A stretch of 20,000 nt of DNA, taken from IMG/VR virus record IMGVR_UViG_3300042287_000536; one strand, given 5' to 3'. Every line of letters begins with the position of its first letter. Positions within the stretch are counted from its first letter, which is position 1. Origin of the DNA: an uncultured virus (IMG/VR IMGVR_UViG_3300042287_000536). Its lineage: Duplodnaviria > Heunggongvirae > Uroviricota > Caudoviricetes. A model generated the notes under the pieces. It was not told the DNA's origin. It saw nothing but the letters and a program-made list of their open reading frames with translations, and made no database searches. The translations under genes and the position numbers were made by a program. Below, one piece after another: positions 11,550-19,101 of the stretch.

Positions 11550-12005
11550 TTATTTTAAGAAAAGTAATTTATACTTACCTGAGTTTATTGTAGACTTGAT
11601 AGTATCTAAGTCATTTACAATTTCAGAATAAGGCATTTTAGCTTGTAAGCCATCTACCATCTTAGTCATGTCTTTTAAATAATCAATTGCTTCTGCTACA
11701 CTGTTTAATGTTTTAGGTGCTACTTCAGTATAAGTAAGTAACTTTTCTGAAGCTCCTTGGAATCCTTCAGCTAAATCATCAGCATGTCCAGGTAATGCAT
11801 CATACAATTCATTAAGTGCTTTGTGAGCAGCATAAGATCCTGATCCTGTTATCTTTAAGTGTAACTTATGAATAGCTGTTCCAGCATTCATTAACTCAGA
11901 TACACAAGCTGATACCATAGAATCTAATGATCCTGTAGAAGGTGCACTGTAGCTTTTTGTAGCTGGCCCACTTTCTCTTTTTAAAAATCTTGATTTCTCT
12001 TCCAT
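11550..12005 (-). CDS. Dps/ferritin-like four-helix-bundle protein (DUF5856-like)
   Basis: HKLHLKITGSGSYAAHKALNELYDALPGHADDLAEGFQG matches the Dps-type H...H...D...E ligand pattern; the protein ends in KYKLLFLK. Confidence 0.75.
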   Translation of the reverse strand: MEEKSRFLKRESGPATKSYSAPSTGSLDSMVSACVSELMNAGTAIHKLHLKITGSGSYAAHKALNELYDALPGHADDLAEGFQGASEKLLTYTEVAPKTLNSVAEAIDYLKDMTKMVDGLQAKMPYSEIVNDLDTIKSTINSGKYKLLFLK

Positions 12006-12022
12006 TATTTCTTTTTTATATT

Positions 12023-12727
12023 TTAATTATTATTTTCTACTGCTTGAGTCATTCTTTGATACTGGTTCATAGATTCAATATCTCCAGCTAATATCTTAAC
12101 TGCTTCATCTACAAATAGTTCCACTAAATCATCTTTAAATTCAGATGGTACATCAACAGTAGAAGTTATTCCTGTATAAGGATTAGCTACTCCTGCAATT
12201 TGAATATAAGTTGGTTGTCTGTAGTAATGCAATCTTGATTCAGTTATGTCAAATAAGTTATTAGTATATAACTGAACTTGATTATTAGAAACAGTTGCAA
12301 AAGTTTCACCCCACTCATAGCTTGGTTGCTTATTCTTATCTCTAAGAAGTTCATCCACATTGGCAACTTCACCTAGATATACAACCATAATTTTTGGAGT
12401 AGGACAACAGTTTTGAGCAGCTTTAACAGAGACTCTTTTCCACTGTAAGTAATTAGTAGGAAAGTTAGTACTCTCATAATAGGTTTGCTTGTTGTTAAGA
12501 GTTAACAATGTTGAACCCAATAATATTTGCAAATCATCTATTCTTCTAGTAGACTGTTCATCACCTTCTTTGGTCATATTAGTACCATGAAGATTTCTCC
12601 GGCACCAATCTACTTGACCCTTGTTAAAAGCTTCAATAATCTGCCAAGCTTCTATGTTGTCATAATCGTTTGAGGCCAACTTGTTCAACCTCTGTTTCAC
12701 TTTTATTAATATGGTTGAATTAAGCAT
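12023..12727 (-). CDS. Tail ring/adaptor protein (crAss gene 74/R3-like)
   Basis: 234 aa with a KLASNDYDN...FNKGQ...EQSTRRIDDLQIL...YYRQP...ELFVDEAVKILAG pattern, located downstream of the MCP as in crAss-like modules. Confidence 0.65.
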   Translation of the reverse strand: MLNSTILIKVKQRLNKLASNDYDNIEAWQIIEAFNKGQVDWCRRNLHGTNMTKEGDEQSTRRIDDLQILLGSTLLTLNNKQTYYESTNFPTNYLQWKRVSVKAAQNCCPTPKIMVVYLGEVANVDELLRDKNKQPSYEWGETFATVSNNQVQLYTNNLFDITESRLHYYRQPTYIQIAGVANPYTGITSTVDVPSEFKDDLVELFVDEAVKILAGDIESMNQYQRMTQAVENNN

Positions 12728-13226
12728 TGTTTAAATAAGTTATAAGGTTTAATAATATATTTTTATCATCTTTAATTAATCCTAAAGCTTTATTACAGCT
12801 ATCACAAAGCAAGCCTCTTATTTTTCCTGTTACATGACAATGGTCTACACATAAATCTCTTTTTAATAAAGATCTATGTTGGTTACAACCTAAACAACAT
12901 TCTTTTTGTTTTATAAACATTTCATTATATTTTTCTAATGTTATGTTATATATTGCTTTTAAATGAGGCTTAGTTTCTTTTAGTTTTAACCATCTTTCTT
13001 TATTATAATCTCTTGTCTTTTCTTTATTATCAATTAAATATTGTTTTCTGGTTTCACTTTTACCAAACTTCACAGCTCTTTCTTTATATATACTTATATT
13101 AGCTTTATAATGAGCTTTTTTATAAGCAGCAACTTTCTCTTTATTTTTATGATACCATTCCAAAGATCTGCTTTTTTTAGGAGCAGTTTGTATTTTATCA
13201 CTTATGAGAATAGTTGAATTTAACAT
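12720..13226 (-). mobile_element. Free-standing homing endonuclease, endonuclease VII-type HNH
   Basis: C-terminal YNITLEKYNEM...CLGC...LCVDHCHVTGKIRGLLCDSCNKALG is the Endo VII His-Me finger, preceded by a basic helical region. Its first 8 aa are identical to those of the downstream gene, and its stop overlaps that gene's ATG. Confidence 0.85.
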
Positions 13227-13232
13227 TTACTA

Positions 13233-13403
13233 TTATTTTTTCTTTTTAGCCTTAGCTTTTGGGTTAAAAAATTCTTGCATTACTTCAACTCTAGGTTGTT
13301 TCTTTTTTTTATTATTGTCTTCTACATTTTTATTGTAGATGCCAATCATCTTCTTATCAGTAGATAAGACAGACTTTCCTTTTACACTTGCTGATTTTTT
13401 CAT
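13233..13403 (-). CDS. Small Lys-rich protein (56 aa), absent from the ORF track
   Basis: Hand translation MKKSASVKGKSVLSTDKKMIGIYNKNVEDNNKKKKQPRVEVMQEFFNPKAKAKKKK. It has an A-rich leader and fills the gap exactly. Confidence 0.75.
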   Translation of the reverse strand: MKKSASVKGKSVLSTDKKMIGIYNKNVEDNNKKKKQPRVEVMQEFFNPKAKAKKKK

Positions 13404-13413
13404 AGTTTTTATT

Positions 13414-13665
13414 TTAACATTTCCATTTTCTCAAAGACTTATTGATTCTTGAATCAGGATCATTAGCAGTCTTTGCACTAGTTAATTTTTTCTTCATACC
13501 TTTCATCCTTGCACAAAAAGAATCTTTTCTAGAACCTCCTTCTGGTTGAGGAGCTTTAAGGTTTGATCCTGGATTAGCTTTATTATAAGAAGCTCTTCCT
13601 TTTGCATTAAGACCTCCACTAGGAGCCTTACCTTCTTTTCTTTGCCAAGCTGGACTCTTTGCCAT
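13414..13665 (-). CDS. Small basic phage protein (SFCARM family, DUF6321-like)
   Basis: The GGLNAKGRASYN...SFCARMKGMK...DPDSRINKSLRKWKC pattern is recognisable from small proteins of aquatic phages. Confidence 0.75.
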   Translation of the reverse strand: MAKSPAWQRKEGKAPSGGLNAKGRASYNKANPGSNLKAPQPEGGSRKDSFCARMKGMKKKLTSAKTANDPDSRINKSLRKWKC

Positions 13666-13814
13666 TATTTCTTAGTTTTAGATTTAATCTTTTTTTCTTG
13701 TTTAAGCATCTCCTTACTAGGAGCTTTTCCTGATCCTTTATTAGCTCTGATATTATCCCACAAACCTCTTTGTGAAGTACTACCATCTTTTCTTTTGATC
13801 ATTTGCTTAGCCAT
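13665..13814 (-). CDS. Small basic protein (49 aa), absent from the ORF track
   Basis: MAKQMIKRKDGSTSQRGLWDNIRANKGSGKAPSKEMLKQEKKIKSKTKK, with a TAATG stop/start overlap with the next gene. Confidence 0.8.
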   Translation of the reverse strand: MAKQMIKRKDGSTSQRGLWDNIRANKGSGKAPSKEMLKQEKKIKSKTKK

Positions 13815-13820
13815 TGTTTC

Positions 13821-14468
13821 TTAGTTTTTTGTTGGTATTGGTGTTCCTACAGGATAGGGTGCACCTTTCTTAGCTGCAGTAATTGAAGTTTCTCCATTTT
13901 TAACTGGGATAGCAATTCTTAATGGAAGAGCATCTTCATTTAATGGACCATATACTTTAGCAAGAATGATACCTGTTGAAGTTGTATCAAATATAATTCC
14001 AGGCATTCCAAACATATTACTTTCACTAGTTTCAGGATGACTCATGTCAATAGTAAACTTACGGTTTACTGGTGATAATAATTCCCAAGATTTTGATTCA
14101 GGGTTAAACTGTGGAATTACTGTAGTTGAATCATAATACCAAAACAAAGACCAAACTGTAGTGTTAGTTCCATCAGGAGTTTGAAAATTATTTTCAATAT
14201 TAAAATCTCCCCATGTTCCACCTGAACCATACATAGCCAAGTTAGAGATTGAAGGACCTTCTAATACAGGACAAATAGCACAACCTTCATTATACTCTAC
14301 ACCTTGTATCATTATTTTCTTACCTGTTGGTACTGCACCAGATGCTCCACAAAATGCAAATTTGCTTTTATGAATTCTTAGTACACTTCTTTCAGGAAGC
14401 TTAGTTGATTCAGTACTGCAACTAATTATTAAGCTGCTTGCAAATATTAAAAATATTAAGTTTTTCAT
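13821..14468 (-). CDS. Predicted lipoprotein of unknown function
   Basis: MKNLIFLIFASSLIISC is a signal peptide II with lipobox Cys17, followed by a soluble domain (FAFCGASGA...CAICPVLEGPSI). Confidence 0.7.
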   Translation of the reverse strand: MKNLIFLIFASSLIISCSTESTKLPERSVLRIHKSKFAFCGASGAVPTGKKIMIQGVEYNEGCAICPVLEGPSISNLAMYGSGGTWGDFNIENNFQTPDGTNTTVWSLFWYYDSTTVIPQFNPESKSWELLSPVNRKFTIDMSHPETSESNMFGMPGIIFDTTSTGIILAKVYGPLNEDALPLRIAIPVKNGETSITAAKKGAPYPVGTPIPTKN

Positions 14469-14472
14469 AGTT

Positions 14473-14625
14473 TTATTTTTTAGCTTTAGCCATTTTTTTA
14501 AAAGTAATTGCCAAAGCTTTTCTCTTTGGTGTACAAGTAGCTTTAGTCATTGGAGTACAATAACCCTTATGAGCAGGATTAACTGCTTTTTGAATCCACT
14601 TCTTGTCTTTCTTTTCAGCAGGCAT
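14473..14625 (-). CDS. Small basic protein (50 aa), absent from the ORF track
   Basis: MPAEKKDKKWIQKAVNPAHKGYCTPMTKATCTPKRKALAITFKKMAKAKK, which fills the gap between its neighbours. Confidence 0.8.
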   Translation of the reverse strand: MPAEKKDKKWIQKAVNPAHKGYCTPMTKATCTPKRKALAITFKKMAKAKK

Positions 14626-14627
14626 TA

Positions 14628-14828
14628 CTATTTCTTTTTAGTTGTTTTAACTGTAGGTTTAGGTGATCCACCAAACATCATTTTGTTTAATGAGTCCATA
14701 GATTTTTTAACACCTCCCATTAAAGCTTTATCTTTACGGATAGCTTCAGCTCTTTGAAGAGTTCTCATTGCATCTTCAATTTCCCATTGTCTGTCAGGGC
14801 CACTTAAGGCTACTTTAATTTTTGCCAT
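14628..14828 (-). CDS. Small basic protein (66 aa)
   Basis: Packed ORF with a WEIEDAMRTLQRAEAIRKD helix and a Lys-rich tail. Confidence 0.75.
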   Translation of the reverse strand: MAKIKVALSGPDRQWEIEDAMRTLQRAEAIRKDKALMGGVKKSMDSLNKMMFGGSPKPTVKTTKKK

Positions 14829-14830
14829 GA

Positions 14831-15247
14831 TTATTTCTTTTTAGTTGAACCACCCATTTTTTTCTTAGCACCTGCAATTTTATCTGCAAATGTTACTTTA
14901 TTATAAGGAGGTGCTAACTTAGCAAACTTAGAAGTTGCTCCACCTTTTTTTGCCACAGGTCTATTACTATAAGTTGCAGTTGGAATAACAGCCTTTTTTG
15001 AAACAGCATCTGGAGCATAAGTTCCACTTGGACCAGAAGTTCCTTTAACAGCTTTTGATGGACCAGCATAACCTGATTTACGAGTATACACAGCCTCACC
15101 TGCAGGATTTGTAATACTAGTTTTTCTGTAGTTAGGATTTTGTGCTACATCCATATCTATTTGCTTAGCTTTTATAGTGTTAGCTGGAGTTGAATCAACA
15201 CCTCCATAATTTTTTTTAACTAATTTTTTTACTACTTTCTTTGCCAT
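14831..15247 (-). CDS. Lys/Gly-rich low-complexity protein (138 aa)
   Basis: Packed ORF with NYGG, KKGG and KMGG motifs and LAPPYNKVTFADKIAGA near the C-terminus. Confidence 0.75.
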   Translation of the reverse strand: MAKKVVKKLVKKNYGGVDSTPANTIKAKQIDMDVAQNPNYRKTSITNPAGEAVYTRKSGYAGPSKAVKGTSGPSGTYAPDAVSKKAVIPTATYSNRPVAKKGGATSKFAKLAPPYNKVTFADKIAGAKKKMGGSTKKK

Positions 15248-15265
15248 GTTTTTATTTTTTATAGA

Positions 15266-15463
15266 TTAACACTTAGATTTTTTAGAACCACCCATTTTCA
15301 TCTTCATAGGTACAGCTCCTTTTGGAGGTGTATTAACACCACCAGAAGATTTAGGTTTAATACTAGTTTGTACTTTAGCAGTGCCATTAGTACCACCTTG
15401 CTTACCTGTAGCTTTAGAAGCTGCAGTAGCTTTAGGATTTGCAGATTTCATTGTTCCAGCCAT
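15266..15463 (-). CDS. Small basic protein (65 aa), probable paralogue of the upstream 56-aa gene
   Basis: Starts MAGTMKSAN, has two GGxN-ended units and ends MKMGGSKKSKC. Confidence 0.75.
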   Translation of the reverse strand: MAGTMKSANPKATAASKATGKQGGTNGTAKVQTSIKPKSSGGVNTPPKGAVPMKMKMGGSKKSKC

Positions 15464-15469
15464 GTTTTC

Positions 15470-15640
15470 TTATTTTTTTAATTTACCATTAGGTACATCA
15501 CATGCAGCAATGTTCATGCCTCCAGTGTATCTTGTTGGATTAGTTACTACTATAGGGTATGCATTCATACCTCCTTTGTATCTTGTAGGAGTTGTTACTA
15601 CTACAGGAAAAGTGTTTGCGGTTTTCATTTGTCCAGCCAT
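15470..15640 (-). CDS. Small protein (56 aa) with a 17-aa tandem repeat, absent from the ORF track
   Basis: MAGQMKTAN-TFPVVVTTPTRYKGGMN-AYPIVVTNPTRYTGGMN-IAACDVPNGKLKK. Confidence 0.8.
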   Translation of the reverse strand: MAGQMKTANTFPVVVTTPTRYKGGMNAYPIVVTNPTRYTGGMNIAACDVPNGKLKK

Positions 15641-17475: not shown

Positions 17476-19101
17476 TTAGAATGATCCTCCAGTGATTGGG
17501 TTTCTCATTACAATCTTTAACACCTTAGTTGGATCTTTAACCCAAATAGCTGGCATTGTTTGTGTCATCATTACACGGTATCCATTGAAGTTACCATTTG
17601 ATTGGAACCCTTGAGTTCTTCCCATGTAATCCATAGTACCATTTTGGTAGAACCATTTTAATTGGTTATCCCAAGATAATTTTAACATGAAGATGTTATC
17701 ATTTCCTGTATCAGTGATATCAAATATAACAAATGAGTAAGAACTTAATGGGTTACCATCAATAATTGGGTTCTCAATATCATTAGTATGTAAGTTATCA
17801 AATGCTGGATTTAATACAAACTTCACATTTGCTAAGAATGGAATCACATAAGATGTGAAAGCAAATCCAAAGTTTAAGTCCATTCCTTGACCAGAGATAG
17901 CACCAATACCATTGTTGCTTGCAGCTTGGATTACTAAACCAGAGTTAACAGCTTCACGCTTGATAGCCTCATTTACTAATCTCATACCACCCATACCTGT
18001 TTGTACAATTAATTGTCTCTTAGGATCTGGACCTTGAAATTCAACACGACCTGCATAGAAGTTATATAATTCACTTCTGAACAACTCTAAGCTGAAACTA
18101 GATTTGTTATATACTCTCTTGTAAGAGTTATCTAACTGTTTCCATAAACCTACAGATAATCTCATATCATCTGGACCATCTTGCTTAATTCTACCACCAT
18201 GACCCCACATTAAGTAAGTTTCAATGTCAGTAGCAATTTTAGTTAAGTGAGCAGATTCCATGCTAGTTAAGAAAGTTCTTGTTAAAGTACCATTTCCTAC
18301 TGCACGCTTCATGTAGTCTTTACCCATTTTAGATGCAACATCTTCAATTTTAGAAATAGAAGGATCTACATTCTTATCAAAGTTTCTCCAGATCTCAGTT
18401 ACAGGAACTGTACCATCTGCATTCATTCCACCTTTTAACATTAAGTCAGCTCTTGAAGAGATTGAATAATGTACATGAGCTTCAGCACCACCTACAAAGT
18501 TATAGAATTCACGGAACCCTGATCTAGTTTGAATATCAGAGAATCTTTCTCCATACTCACCTCTAGCAGAACCTTTTCTAAATAACTTAGTTTGAGGAAC
18601 TAAATACTTGTTCTCTAAAAACTTGTAGTTATCATTGTTTACTAATTGTACAGTGTAGATAAAACCATCACCCATTGGTAAGATATCATCAGCTGTAATG
18701 TACATCTCAACACCATTGTATTTGTCATAAGTGATGATATCACCATGTCCAAATTCTCTTTTGTTGATTTTGATTTTGAAGGTTGTACCATCAATACCTT
18801 TAGTAGCATTTCCTGACTCAATATCTTCCATGATATATGGTAAATCTTGAGATACTGGAGTTTGCCATTTGTACTCACCACGTGCATTATCTACATTGAT
18901 GATGTTCTTACCACCAAAAGATGATAATTGGTAAAGAGGCATCTCTACTTTTTGAGACATAGCCCAAATGTCCACTGGACCTAAATCCATTGGTTCTGCA
19001 TCTTTTAACATGTTTACTAAGTGGTAAGAATCCACATGAGAACTAGCTTGGTAGTTTGTATCACGTAGGAATATACCATTGTTTAATACTGGAGTTGACA
19101 T
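17476..19101 (-). CDS. Major capsid protein (crAss-like, HK97 fold expected)
   Basis: 541 aa with highly expressed codon usage, downstream of an acidic scaffold-like gene. Motifs include EYKW, YTVQL, LMWGHGG...GLWKQL, TGMGGM, FGFAFTSY and a C-terminal IWVKDPTK. Confidence 0.85.
   Translation of the reverse strand: MSTPVLNNGIFLRDTNYQASSHVDSYHLVNMLKDAEPMDLGPVDIWAMSQKVEMPLYQLSSFGGKNIINVDNARGEYKWQTPVSQDLPYIMEDIESGNATKGIDGTTFKIKINKREFGHGDIITYDKYNGVEMYITADDILPMGDGFIYTVQLVNNDNYKFLENKYLVPQTKLFRKGSARGEYGERFSDIQTRSGFREFYNFVGGAEAHVHYSISSRADLMLKGGMNADGTVPVTEIWRNFDKNVDPSISKIEDVASKMGKDYMKRAVGNGTLTRTFLTSMESAHLTKIATDIETYLMWGHGGRIKQDGPDDMRLSVGLWKQLDNSYKRVYNKSSFSLELFRSELYNFYAGRVEFQGPDPKRQLIVQTGMGGMRLVNEAIKREAVNSGLVIQAASNNGIGAISGQGMDLNFGFAFTSYVIPFLANVKFVLNPAFDNLHTNDIENPIIDGNPLSSYSFVIFDITDTGNDNIFMLKLSWDNQLKWFYQNGTMDYMGRTQGFQSNGNFNGYRVMMTQTMPAIWVKDPTKVLKIVMRNPITGGSF

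What the first reader, a model, noticed from the sequence alone, without database searches (positions are those of the whole stretch)
12599..13226. Homing endonuclease that takes over a structural gene's start and rebuilds it with a recoded 5' end
Seen: the HNH ORF and the downstream ring gene both begin MLNSTILI. The DNA is ATG TTA AAT TCA ACT ATT CTC ATA (13226-13203) versus ATG CTT AAT TCA ACC ATA TTA ATA (12727-12704), so 6 of 24 nt differ and all changes are synonymous. The ring ATG overlaps the HNH stop (AATGCTTAA). Ring codons 10-24 are anomalous: 11 of 15 end in G/C (GTG AAA CAG AGG TTG AAC AAG TTG GCC TCA AAC GAT TAT GAC AAC) in a genome that prefers A/T endings, and rare CpGs occur up to TGC CGG at about codon 43. 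Inference: the element inserted after about nt 25 of an essential virion gene and took its translation start. It avoids inactivating the gene, with no intron or intein, by carrying a recoded, cleavage-resistant replacement N-terminus that is translationally coupled. A similar gene-end-regenerating strategy is known for fungal mitochondrial homing endonucleases; I cannot confirm whether it is described for Endo VII-type genes in phage tail modules.
Basis: partly seen in the sequence, partly recalled or inferred. Interest (0 to 1): 0.85.

Follow-up and report, generated by a model that had tools for sequence, protein, structure and literature searches.

The report
Homing endonuclease borrowing ring-gene start
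A selfish DNA-cutting-enzyme gene sits inside the first eight codons of an essential tail-ring gene of a lake-water crAss-like phage: it is read from that gene's own start, and the ring gene restarts at an ATG built into the enzyme gene's last codons, so no intron or intein is needed.

Summary
The Endo VII-type HNH ORF (12720-13226, minus strand) and the ring gene (12023-12727, minus strand) both begin MLNSTILI. The two copies differ at 6 of 24 nt, all synonymous, and the ring ATG lies inside the HNH stop region (8-nt overlap).

An HNH-free relative (L002, ring 99% identical) shows the insertion. Its leader and ring nt 1-17 equal the HNH start copy, and nt 18-23 equal the downstream copy.

The same 499-nt layout occurs in 13 of 13 HNH-bearing sequences from five lineages. 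On the ring tree it needs at least 4 gains or losses. HNH synonymous divergence (0.31-0.62) is below the ring gene's (1.0-2.5) in 10 of 10 pairs. I therefore read the element as mobile.

The GC3-rich codons 10-24 are native ring sequence (10/15 in empty L002) and are not carried by the element. In four other lineages a donor-type ring 5' end of about 40 nt does seem to travel with the HNH.

Two GIY-YIG genes in related phages capture a gene start and a gene end in the same way.

Cleavage, immunity and translational coupling are untested. The scan has noted this layout before on other phage DNA; my searches found no phage paper describing it.

The parts
13227..13244 (-). Native ring-gene leader, now in front of the HNH ORF
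   Evidence: The 18 nt upstream of the HNH ATG are identical to the 18 nt upstream of the ring ATG in the HNH-free allele L002. It also contains the 12-nt repeat at which the window lacks the 86-aa ORF of L001.
13203..13226 (-). R1: captured ring start (ATG plus codons 2-8), used as HNH codons 1-8
   Evidence: Nt 1-17 are identical to the ring start of empty L002. In lineage D this copy uses the AGT Ser4 codon typical of that clade's own ring genes.
12720..13226 (-). Endo VII / DHHRN-type HNH homing endonuclease ORF, 168 aa
   Evidence: PF02945 at E 3.2e-22. PHROG endonuclease VII families. Nearest solved relative is Hpy99I. Intact at 168 aa in 13 of 13 copies. dN/dS 0.17-0.49.
12726..12965 (-). 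Endo VII catalytic domain (residues 88-167) with D128, H129, H131, R137, N145
   Evidence: One search gives the domain range. One search shows these residues invariant in three lineages. One search aligns them to Hpy99I.
12720..12727 (-). 8-nt overlap ATGCTTAA: the ring ATG lies inside the last HNH codon and stop
   Evidence: Present in 13 of 13 occupied sequences, with the ring ATG always 499 nt after the HNH ATG.
12704..12727 (-). R2: second copy of ring codons 1-8, the working ring start
   Evidence: It differs from empty L002 at nt 4, 6, 15 and 24, which is 4 of the 16 differences in the 705-nt gene.
12023..12727 (-). Ring / head-to-tail adaptor gene, 234 aa
   Evidence: phrog_29507 virion structural protein. 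Weak tblastn match to a 'ring protein' of phage csAssE-Sib. Fold match to the phicrAss001 tail barrel 7qoj.
12656..12700 (-). GC3-rich ring codons 10-24: native sequence, not part of the mobile element
   Evidence: 11/15 GC3 here against 10/15 in HNH-free L002, with nt 25-68 identical.
13233..13403 (-). Upstream 56-aa Lys-rich ORF, last member of a variable cassette region
   Evidence: The neighbours differ between the window, L001 and L002.

Best explanation
This is a mobile, free-standing homing endonuclease gene of the Endo VII / DHHRN (F-CphI-like) kind, lodged inside the first 24 nt of the essential ring (head-to-tail adaptor) gene of a freshwater crAss-like phage.

Shown:
- The insert is 499 nt.
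- The HNH ORF has no start of its own. It is read from the ring gene's native leader, ATG and first 8 codons (R1).
- A second copy of those codons (R2) begins the ring gene, and its ATG is embedded in the last HNH codon and stop.
- HNH-free alleles exist in near-identical phages.
- The element has a patchy distribution and is younger than the ring genes it sits in.

Inferred:
- The enzyme cuts HNH-free ring alleles near the 5' end.
- Break repair copies the element in. R1 serves as the left homology arm and R2 plus the ring gene as the right arm. Both arms therefore lie in the conserved gene, although the upstream neighbours are hypervariable.
- R1 ends up recipient-derived, and the first 9 to about 40 nt of R2 donor-derived.
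- The ring protein is made by re-initiation or independent initiation at the embedded ATG. That ATG is preceded by a very conserved AT-rich HNH 3' end.
- The occupied allele is immune because the target is split by the insert, possibly helped by the few synonymous differences in R2.
For: - Anatomy.
- Empty allele: in L002 the leader plus nt 1-17 equal R1, nt 18-23 equal R2, and the ring protein is 99% identical (16 of 705 nt differ).
- Distribution: the HNH lies upstream of the ring gene in 2 of 23 ring loci from viral contigs. Further occupied lineages were found with the HNH as query. In all, 13 of 13 occupied sequences in five lineages have the same 499-nt spacing and ATGCTTAA overlap.
- Mobility: on a 20-row ring tree the HNH needs at least 4 gains or losses. 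The sister pairs W/L002 and L051/L004 differ in occupancy, and L046 sits in a separate deep clade of empties.
- Age: window against L046 gives HNH 87% nt and 83% aa identity, but ring 65% and 58%. The HNH tree joins them (88/92). dS is 0.31-0.62 for the HNH against 1.0-2.5 for the ring in 10 of 10 pairs, and HNH dN/dS is 0.17-0.49.
- R1 is resident: lineage D uses AGT for Ser4, like its clade's empties, where other lineages use TCA.
- Co-conversion: identity between occupied alleles is 96% at ring nt 1-9 and 76% at nt 10-30. Occupied-to-empty identity is 74% and 56%. From nt 31 on there is no difference. Codon 12 is Q/E in 15 of 15 empties and in the window, but N/S in lineages B-E. L046 shows a run of 6 donor-type sites at nt 18-34 against a 27:18 native:donor background.
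- Natural polymorphism: lake-water contigs hold both forms. X5 has a 23.8-kb contig with the HNH. X18 has a 3.6-kb contig that joins 12670 to 13409 and carries the 16 L002-type differences.
- Same logic in relatives: a GIY-YIG gene takes the first 17 nt of the DUF6321 gene, and another takes the last codons of the muzzle gene.
Against: - No enzyme activity, cut site or immunity has been measured, and the donor of any transfer is unsampled.
- Window against L003 shows the HNH only modestly more alike than its flanks (84% against 78% nt). Part of the pattern could therefore be vertical descent with losses.
- L002 could equally be a precise deletion between R1 and R2. The direction cannot be told from the sequence.
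- The window's own ring 5' end beyond nt 24 is the empty-type haplotype, so a carried tract is not visible in this lineage.
- The co-conversion statistics are modest: run probabilities are about 0.004 (lineage D) and 0.03 (lineage E) by my own rough count.
- Both copies carry the lineage-specific codon 5 (Thr or Ala) and, in D, Val7. A simple one-cut repair model does not explain this.
- dS in a gene with 24% GC may be under-estimated.
- All relatives are metagenomic assemblies.
Confidence: 0.8

Rival explanations
1. An old, vertically inherited nuclease gene that is no longer mobile. It would have been inserted once in an ancestor and later lost repeatedly by deletion between the R1 and R2 repeats. 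The similarity of the HNH copies would reflect constraint, not transfer.
For: L002 has exactly the structure expected from R1/R2 deletion. Window against L003 has similar identity for the HNH and its flanks. The ORF is intact and under purifying selection.
Against: Synonymous divergence of the HNH is 2.5- to 6-fold lower than that of the ring gene in 10 of 10 pairs. Lineage D has a ring gene only 58% identical to the window's but an HNH 83% identical, and its R1 uses that clade's own Ser codon. The HNH tree groups the window with L046, against the ring tree.
Confidence: 0.1
2. One reading: the element carries a long (about 43-codon) recoded, GC3-rich, cleavage-resistant replacement N-terminus.
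For: GC3 of codons 10-24 is 11/15, the maximum in the gene. A carried ring 5' end of about 40 nt is seen in lineages B-E.
Against: HNH-free L002 has the same codons (10/15; nt 25-68 identical) and the same two CpGs. Empties L018 and L023 have 9/15, and occupied L050 and L051 have 5/15. The haplotype that travels with the HNH elsewhere (codon 12 N/S, codon 13 CGY) is absent from the window.
Confidence: 0.03
3. Immunity comes only from the insert splitting the recognition site. The synonymous differences in R2 would be by-products: CTT is forced by the HNH stop codon and the rest is drift or allelic difference. They would not be a selected 'recoding'.
For: Codon 2 CTT is present in 13 of 13 occupied alleles and is part of the HNH's final GCT-TAA. 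CTT also occurs in empty L005. The other R1/R2 differences match ordinary ring-allele variation, for example ATA CTC ATA in L004 and L005.
Against: R2 restores 26 of 30 nt of the empty site, so a split-site explanation needs recognition to extend upstream of the ATG. That region is not conserved between lineages. 4 of the 16 window-L002 differences fall in the first 24 of 705 nt.
Confidence: 0.4
4. A self-splicing intron or an intein that removes the HNH from the ring gene's RNA or protein.
For: The position inside a conserved essential gene is typical of introns and inteins.
Against: No Rfam family matches at E<=1 in 12300-13600. The HNH ORF ends with a stop, and the ring gene has its own complete start copy, which a spliced element would not need.
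Confidence: 0.02

Closest known systems
F-CphI / DHHRN family (Endo VII-motif homing endonucleases of phages; PMC6083498: abstract and passages read)
   Same: Same catalytic domain (PF02945) with the conserved D, H, H, R, N residues. Phage-borne and free-standing. Sits next to a conserved gene that it presumably targets.
   Different: F-CphI lies beside psbA and relies on an intron in psbA for immunity ('collaborative homing'). Here there is no intron, and the gene is fused to its target's first 8 codons while the target restarts inside the nuclease gene's end.
Free-standing seg/mob homing endonuclease genes of T4-like phages, 'intronless homing' (review PMC2988022: passages read)
   Same: Optional nuclease genes between or beside essential genes. 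They overlap neighbouring ORFs, translational coupling has been suggested for them, and expression signals for the downstream gene are embedded in the nuclease gene.
   Different: The passages I read describe overlaps with the upstream ORF and embedded promoters. They do not describe capture of the downstream gene's start codons with a duplicated replacement start.
WHO elements of Torulaspora/Lachancea yeasts (PMC7282813: passages read; bioRxiv 10.64898/2026.08.13.744650: abstract read)
   Same: A homing element with neither intron nor intein. It keeps an essential host gene whole by bringing its own copy of the gene's end, and it uses the duplicated fragment as a homology arm.
   Different: WHO replaces the 3' half (about 400 bp) of FBA1 and leaves the old end as a decaying fragment. 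Its nuclease is a LAGLIDADG/intein relative. Here the 5' end is involved, only 24 nt are duplicated, and the displaced native copy is reused as the nuclease's own start.
Mobile endonuclease ORFs ('mORFs') forming gene hybrids in fungal mitochondria, e.g. Allomyces atp6 and Glomus atp6/atp9/cox2/nad3 (PMC3630166: passages read)
   Same: An endonuclease ORF in phase with the host gene, plus a duplicated terminal part that differs mostly at synonymous sites. The native copy matches close relatives and the inserted copy is foreign.
   Different: These are C-terminal duplications in organelles with LAGLIDADG or GIY-YIG nucleases. In this phage group the muzzle-gene GIY-YIG (L065) is the direct 3'-end counterpart, and the window's HNH is the 5'-end mirror image.
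ShiLan-type hidden HNH insertions in actinophage methylase genes (PMC11855218: abstract read)
   Same: An HNH homing element living inside a phage gene without splicing.
   Different: ShiLan is read through in frame as an extra loop of the host protein, and the HNH is in another frame. Here the host gene is not read through the insert.

Membership tests
Endonuclease VII / DHHRN (F-CphI-like) nucleases | Match to the Endo VII catalytic domain above the curated threshold | tested here: met
   PF02945 at 78.7 bits against a cut-off of 23.6, residues 88-167. PHROG endonuclease VII families at E 1.7e-26.
Endonuclease VII / DHHRN (F-CphI-like) nucleases | Conserved D-H-H-R-N catalytic residues | tested here: met
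   D128, H129, H131, R137 and N145 are invariant in three lineages and align to Hpy99I. The family definition comes from PMC6083498.
Endonuclease VII / DHHRN (F-CphI-like) nucleases | Site-specific DNA cleavage | not testable with these tools
   Needs the purified protein and DNA substrates.
Free-standing homing endonuclease gene (intronless homing) | Optional presence at one fixed site among close relatives | tested here: met
   2 of 23 ring loci are occupied. The sister pairs W/L002 and L051/L004 differ in occupancy, and at least 4 changes are needed on the ring tree. 13 of 13 copies sit at the same position.
Free-standing homing endonuclease gene (intronless homing) | The element is younger than, or incongruent with, the host gene | tested here: met
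   dS is lower in 10 of 10 pairs. The HNH tree joins the window and L046 against the ring tree.
Free-standing homing endonuclease gene (intronless homing) | Co-conversion of flanking host sequence | tested here: inconclusive
   Identity among occupied alleles is raised only at ring nt 1-30. The codon 12 N/S variant occurs in 4 of 5 occupied lineages and 0 of 15 empties. The runs of donor-type sites are short, and no tract is visible in the window's own lineage.
Free-standing homing endonuclease gene (intronless homing) | Cuts the element-free allele and spares its own | not testable with these tools
Gene-end-regenerating homing elements (WHO / mORF type) | The nuclease gene is flanked by a duplicated terminal piece of the host gene: the native copy matches empty alleles and the working copy differs | tested here: met
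   R1 plus the leader equal L002 over 35 nt, and R2 differs at nt 4, 6, 15 and 24.
Gene-end-regenerating homing elements (WHO / mORF type) | The displaced native piece is left as a non-coding or decaying fragment at the 3' side | tested here: not met
   Here the displaced piece is at the 5' end and is kept open and in frame as HNH codons 1-8 in 13 of 13 copies.
Gene-end-regenerating homing elements (WHO / mORF type) | The carried copy confers resistance to the nuclease | not testable with these tools
   Needs cleavage assays.
Group I/II intron or intein | A ribozyme core, or an in-frame protein-splicing domain | tested here: not met
   0 Rfam matches at E<=1. The HNH ORF ends in a stop, and the ring gene has its own ATG.
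crAss-type ring / head-to-tail adaptor protein | Fold of the phicrAss001 tail-barrel ring proteins | tested here: met
   Model pLDDT 76.4. 7qoj_E, 7qoj_D and 7qoj_F match at E 4.8e-9 to 1.2e-8 with TM 0.61-0.71, followed by podophage adaptor proteins.

The most novel reading that the evidence does not exclude
'Terminal-codon capture' may be a general third way for homing endonuclease genes to live inside phage genes, beside introns/inteins and intergenic sites. It would be independent of nuclease family (Endo VII-HNH and GIY-YIG here) and would work at either gene end. The element fuses itself to the host gene's native start (or stop) codons and signals, and it supplies a replacement copy for the host gene. 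The short duplicated piece would do two jobs. First, it gives a homology arm inside the conserved gene even where the neighbouring DNA is hypervariable. Second, through its few synonymous differences, it gives immunity to the element's own nuclease. This would be the phage counterpart of yeast WHO elements and fungal mitochondrial mORFs.
Probability: 0.45. Interest if true: 0.75.

Novelty: new variant of a known kind. Interest (0 to 1): 0.62.

Why it matters
Homing endonuclease genes are thought to survive inside essential genes only when an intron or intein removes them, and otherwise to sit between genes. This locus shows a cheap alternative in a phage, supported by natural empty and occupied alleles. 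About 24 duplicated nucleotides and an overlapping stop/start let the nuclease take a late structural gene's expression signals while the gene stays whole.

Three consequences follow:
- It explains a class of confusing annotations in which two adjacent ORFs share a start peptide.
- It gives a simple search rule for finding active homing elements and their likely targets in metagenomic phages.
- It provides a clean test system for how few synonymous changes can protect a target site.

It also marks the ring-gene start as a recombination hotspot bordering a hypervariable cassette region in freshwater crAss-like phages.

Tried and rejected
- Longer duplication: HNH nt 18-60 against ring nt 18-60, own or empty alleles, 9 comparisons. 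Shuffled sequences reached the observed score in 367 to 1968 of 2000 trials, so no homology is detectable beyond about nt 24.
- GC3 as a mark of the element: rejected.
- Intron: no Rfam match.
- Promoter and terminator scan of 11900-14000: counts no higher than in shuffles (8 against 8.9; 2 against 0.9), nothing usable.
- Phage GenBank collection: no close relative. Only a weak ring-protein tblastn match (26% identity) and matches to the DUF6321 and HNH parts.
- Distant Endo VII homologues: 0 of 20 loci examined share a start peptide with a downstream ORF, and 9 of them had such an ORF. L034 and L058-L061 were left out as a duplicate or partial matches.
- Two other GIY-YIG genes (L063, L064) show no terminal sharing.
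- The window's own assembly is not held. The nearest record, G001, has one HNH copy.
- RNA evidence: no RNA holder listed.
- In run X18 no contig covers 12710-13195. Contigs cannot prove absence.
- Literature: searches returned no phage paper describing a nuclease gene fused to its target's first codons with a duplicated start. These are full-text searches of open-access papers only, and supplements were not read.
- The earlier-findings look-up by place returned nothing.
Full report
**What is in the window.** All large ORFs lie on the minus strand. The major capsid protein gene (17476-19101) matches the Crassvirus capsid family (PF23898, E 4e-31). Public runs that hold the stretch are lake-water or freshwater metagenomes. 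The window is therefore part of a freshwater crAss-like phage.

The finding concerns two adjacent ORFs. ORF 12720-13226 (168 aa) matches Endonuclease_7 (PF02945, E 3.2e-22, residues 88-167) and PHROG endonuclease VII families. Its nearest solved relative is the ββα-metal restriction enzyme Hpy99I. ORF 12023-12727 (234 aa) has no Pfam family, but it matches a PHROG of virion structural proteins. Its AlphaFold model (17-sequence alignment, pLDDT 76) matches the tail-barrel ring chains of phicrAss001 (7qoj_D/E/F, E about 5e-9, TM 0.61-0.71), followed by podophage head-to-tail adaptors. 'Ring gene' is a fair name.

Both proteins start MLNSTILI. The two 24-nt copies differ at 6 positions, all synonymous, and the ring ATG lies 8 nt before the end of the HNH ORF. 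The R1 ATG is the only plausible HNH start. The next Met is near residue 103, and the in-frame TTG at codon 22 is CTA, CTT, TTA or CTT in the other lineages.

**Relatives with and without the nuclease gene.** A search of viral contigs with the ring protein gave 23 loci. Reading the DNA upstream of each ring gene showed the HNH in 2 of 23 (L001, ring 100% identical; L003, 81%). The other 21 have none.

Searches with the HNH added L025 and ten full-length copies from metagenome contigs (L043-L052; L050 is the same contig as L025). With the window this makes 13 occupied sequences. By their HNH and ring sequences they fall into five lineages:
- A: window, L001, L043
- B: L003
- C: L025/L050, L048, L049
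- D: L044-L047
- E: L051, L052

In 13 of 13 the HNH is 168 codons long, the ring ATG lies 499 nt after the HNH ATG inside ATGCTTAA, and the HNH begins with the ring gene's first eight codons.

**The empty allele.** L002 has a ring gene that differs from the window's at 16 of 705 nt (99% protein identity) and has no HNH. Its 18-nt leader and ring nt 1-17 are identical to the leader and start of the HNH ORF in the window. Nt 18-23 are those of the downstream copy.

The same holds in lineage E. Its HNH has the leader of empty L004 and shares the first 20 nt of L004's ring gene apart from one synonymous third-position difference. In lineage D, R1 uses AGT for Ser4, as that clade's own empty ring genes do (AGT/AGC), where other lineages use TCA. 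R1 is thus the resident ring start in each lineage.

**What is not carried.** The count is right (11/15, the maximum of 221 windows). But HNH-free L002 has 10/15, is identical over nt 25-68, and has the same two CpGs. Empties L018 and L023 have 9/15, and occupied L050 and L051 have 5/15. This stretch is native ring sequence.

In the window's lineage the working copy differs from L002 only at nt 4, 6, 15 and 24. That is 4 of the 16 differences in the first 24 of 705 nt, where about 0.5 would be expected if they were evenly spread. Nt 4 and 6 turn TTA into CTT, and this codon supplies the HNH's last codon and stop. CTT is found in 13 of 13 occupied alleles.

**Is it mobile?** On a maximum-likelihood tree of 20 ring genes (5 occupied representatives and 15 empties; near-duplicates left out), HNH presence needs at least 4 gains or losses. 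The pairs W/L002 and L051/L004 are sisters that differ in occupancy. L046 lies in a separate, well-supported clade whose other four rows are empty.

HNH copies are 80-88% identical in DNA, while the ring genes they sit in are 64-78% identical. For window against L046 the figures are 87% against 65%. The HNH tree joins these two (88/92). Nei-Gojobori synonymous divergence is 0.31-0.62 for the HNH and 1.0-2.5 for the ring gene in 10 of 10 pairs. HNH dN/dS is 0.17-0.49. The nuclease gene is therefore younger than its hosts' divergence and is under purifying selection, as expected of an active homing element.

Contigs of lake-water runs hold both forms. A 23.8-kb contig in X5 carries the HNH, plus about 250 extra letters at 13233-13244. 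A 3.6-kb contig in X18 carries the 16 L002-type differences and jumps from 12670 to 13409. X15 holds a second HNH variant with 13 differences in 164 nt.

**What travels with it.** Across the five lineages, high conservation runs from about HNH codon 16 to ring nt 8. HNH codons 1-15 are the most variable part (20 of 42 nt invariant, against 24-34 of 42 in the other eleven bins).

Among ring alleles, occupied-to-occupied identity is 96% at nt 1-9 and 76% at nt 10-30. Occupied-to-empty identity is 74% and 56%. From nt 31 on the classes do not differ. Codon 12 is Gln or Glu in 15 of 15 empties and in the window, but Asn or Ser in lineages B-E. Codon 13 is CGY there.

In L046, sites that separate its own clade's empties from lineages B, C and E read native at nt 13. 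They then read donor-type at nt 18, 20, 27, 28, 30 and 34. After that they are mixed (27 native, 18 donor-type). I read this as a short co-conversion tract: a donor ring 5' end of about 40 nt came in with the HNH. The support is modest, and the window's own lineage shows no such tract beyond nt 15-24.

**Mechanism proposed.**

Shown:
- An in-frame fusion of the nuclease ORF to the ring gene's native leader, ATG and eight codons.
- A second start copy whose ATG overlaps the nuclease stop.
- Presence/absence polymorphism.
- Horizontal spread.

Inferred:
- The enzyme cuts empty ring alleles near the 5' end.
- Repair uses R1 as the left homology arm and R2 plus the ring gene as the right arm.

This would explain why R1 is recipient-like and the start of R2 donor-like. 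It would also explain why a duplicated piece of the conserved gene is useful. The DNA upstream of the ring gene is a hypervariable run of small Lys-rich ORFs that differs even between the window, L001 and L002, so it offers no reliable homology.

Ring translation would follow by re-initiation after HNH termination, 5 nt past the ATG. Alternatively it could start independently on the AT-rich, highly conserved last ~45 nt of the HNH gene.

Not explained: both copies carry the lineage's own codon 5 (Thr or Ala), and in lineage D both carry Val7. That needs either a real duplication of recipient sequence or conversion between the copies. Whether L002 is ancestral or arose by deletion between R1 and R2 cannot be told.

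**The same trick elsewhere in this phage group.**
- In L014-L016, a GIY-YIG + NUMOD3 gene (PF01541 from residue 8) starts with the leader and first 17 nt (MAKTAA) of the DUF6321 gene as found in L018, L020, L023 and L006. The DUF6321 gene restarts with an unrelated N-terminus from an ATG 35 nt inside the GIY-YIG 3' end.
- In the 85-kb contig of lineage C (G005, locus L065), a GIY-YIG gene follows the gene for a crAss muzzle-like protein (PF25731). Both proteins end in KNLLSPR. The GIY-YIG copy closely matches, in DNA, the native 3' end and downstream junction of the element-free genomes, best in G001. The muzzle gene's own end is spelled differently in 5 of 7 codons. This is the 3'-end arrangement known from fungi.
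- Two other GIY-YIG genes (L063, L064), one further Endo VII gene (L017) and 20 distant Endo VII homologues show no such sharing.

**Comparison with what is known.** The enzyme belongs by sequence to the Endo VII-motif (DHHRN) family founded by F-CphI (PMC6083498). D128, H129, H131, R137 and N145 are conserved.

As a way of life it is a free-standing homing endonuclease gene, like the T4 seg and mob genes. The T4 review (PMC2988022) describes overlaps with upstream genes, possible coupling, and host promoters embedded in nuclease genes. In the passages I read it does not describe capture of the target's start codons.

The closest described logic is in eukaryotes. WHO elements replace the 3' end of yeast FBA1 and use the duplicated piece as a homology arm (PMC7282813; bioRxiv 2026 abstract). 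Mitochondrial mORF 'gene hybrids' have duplicated C-termini that differ synonymously (PMC3630166). The window's case is the 5' mirror image, with a much shorter duplicate whose displaced copy is reused as the nuclease's own start.

Five literature searches gave no phage paper describing this. They cover open-access full text only.

Earlier notes of this scan report the same layout on other phage DNA (e1-3545696, e1-5381350, e1-5855289, e1-279714). They are unchecked AI notes and I did not test them. One of them led me to the WHO paper.

**Verdict.** The feature is real and well documented. It is wrong about the extent and the GC3 signature of the rebuilt part. Cleavage specificity, immunity and coupling are open. 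I class it as a new variant of a known kind, with moderate to high interest because natural empty and occupied alleles and two parallel cases make the strategy directly testable.

Noticed in passing
L014:490-1459, L015:1585-2554, L016:272-1241: A GIY-YIG + NUMOD3 homing endonuclease gene begins with the leader and first 17 nt (MAKTAA) of the DUF6321 gene as seen in relatives. The DUF6321 gene restarts with an unrelated N-terminus from an ATG 35 nt inside the GIY-YIG 3' end. This is a second, independent case of start capture.
   Followed up: partly
L065:12-2211 (record G005, the contig of L025): A GIY-YIG gene lies directly after the gene for a crAss muzzle-like protein, and both proteins end KNLLSPR. 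The GIY-YIG copy closely matches the native 3' end and junction of element-free genomes G001-G004, best in G001. The muzzle gene's own end is synonymously respelled. This is a WHO/mORF-like 3'-end capture in a phage.
   Followed up: partly
window 13227-13244; L001:2235-2495: The window lacks an 86-aa Lys-rich ORF that the otherwise near-identical L001 and a 23.8-kb contig of run X5 carry between the 56-aa ORF and the HNH. The junction is a 12-nt direct repeat at the ends of both ORFs, so this looks like deletion or insertion by short-repeat recombination.
   Followed up: partly
window 13233-15640 and the upstream 1.5 kb of L001-L023: Between the capsid-side genes and the ring gene lies a hypervariable run of small, very Lys-rich ORFs. 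Most end in KKK(K) with an abutting or overlapping next ATG, and their number and order differ between close relatives. It looks like a cassette region shuffled at short conserved junctions. The function of these proteins is unknown.
   Followed up: no
window 13821-14468 (minus strand): A 215-aa ORF with a signal-peptide and lipobox-like start (MKNLIFLIFASSLIISC...) is present in the window and L001 but absent from L002, where about 600 nt are missing. It has no Pfam or PHROG match.
   Followed up: no
L017:1418-1987: Another Endo VII-type ORF (189 aa, PF02945 E 6e-15) sits free-standing in the same cassette region of a relative. It shares no terminal peptide with a neighbour.
   Followed up: partly
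window 12023-12727 against L002:3001-3705: Of the 16 differences between the two ring genes, 9 are C in the window against T in L002 and only 2 go the other way. Most are at third codon positions. This directional bias accounts for the window's slightly higher GC3.
   Followed up: no
window 12839-13002 in run X15: One lake-water run holds two HNH variants: one identical to the window and one with 13 differences in 164 nt. Several HNH alleles therefore co-occur in one sample.
   Followed up: no
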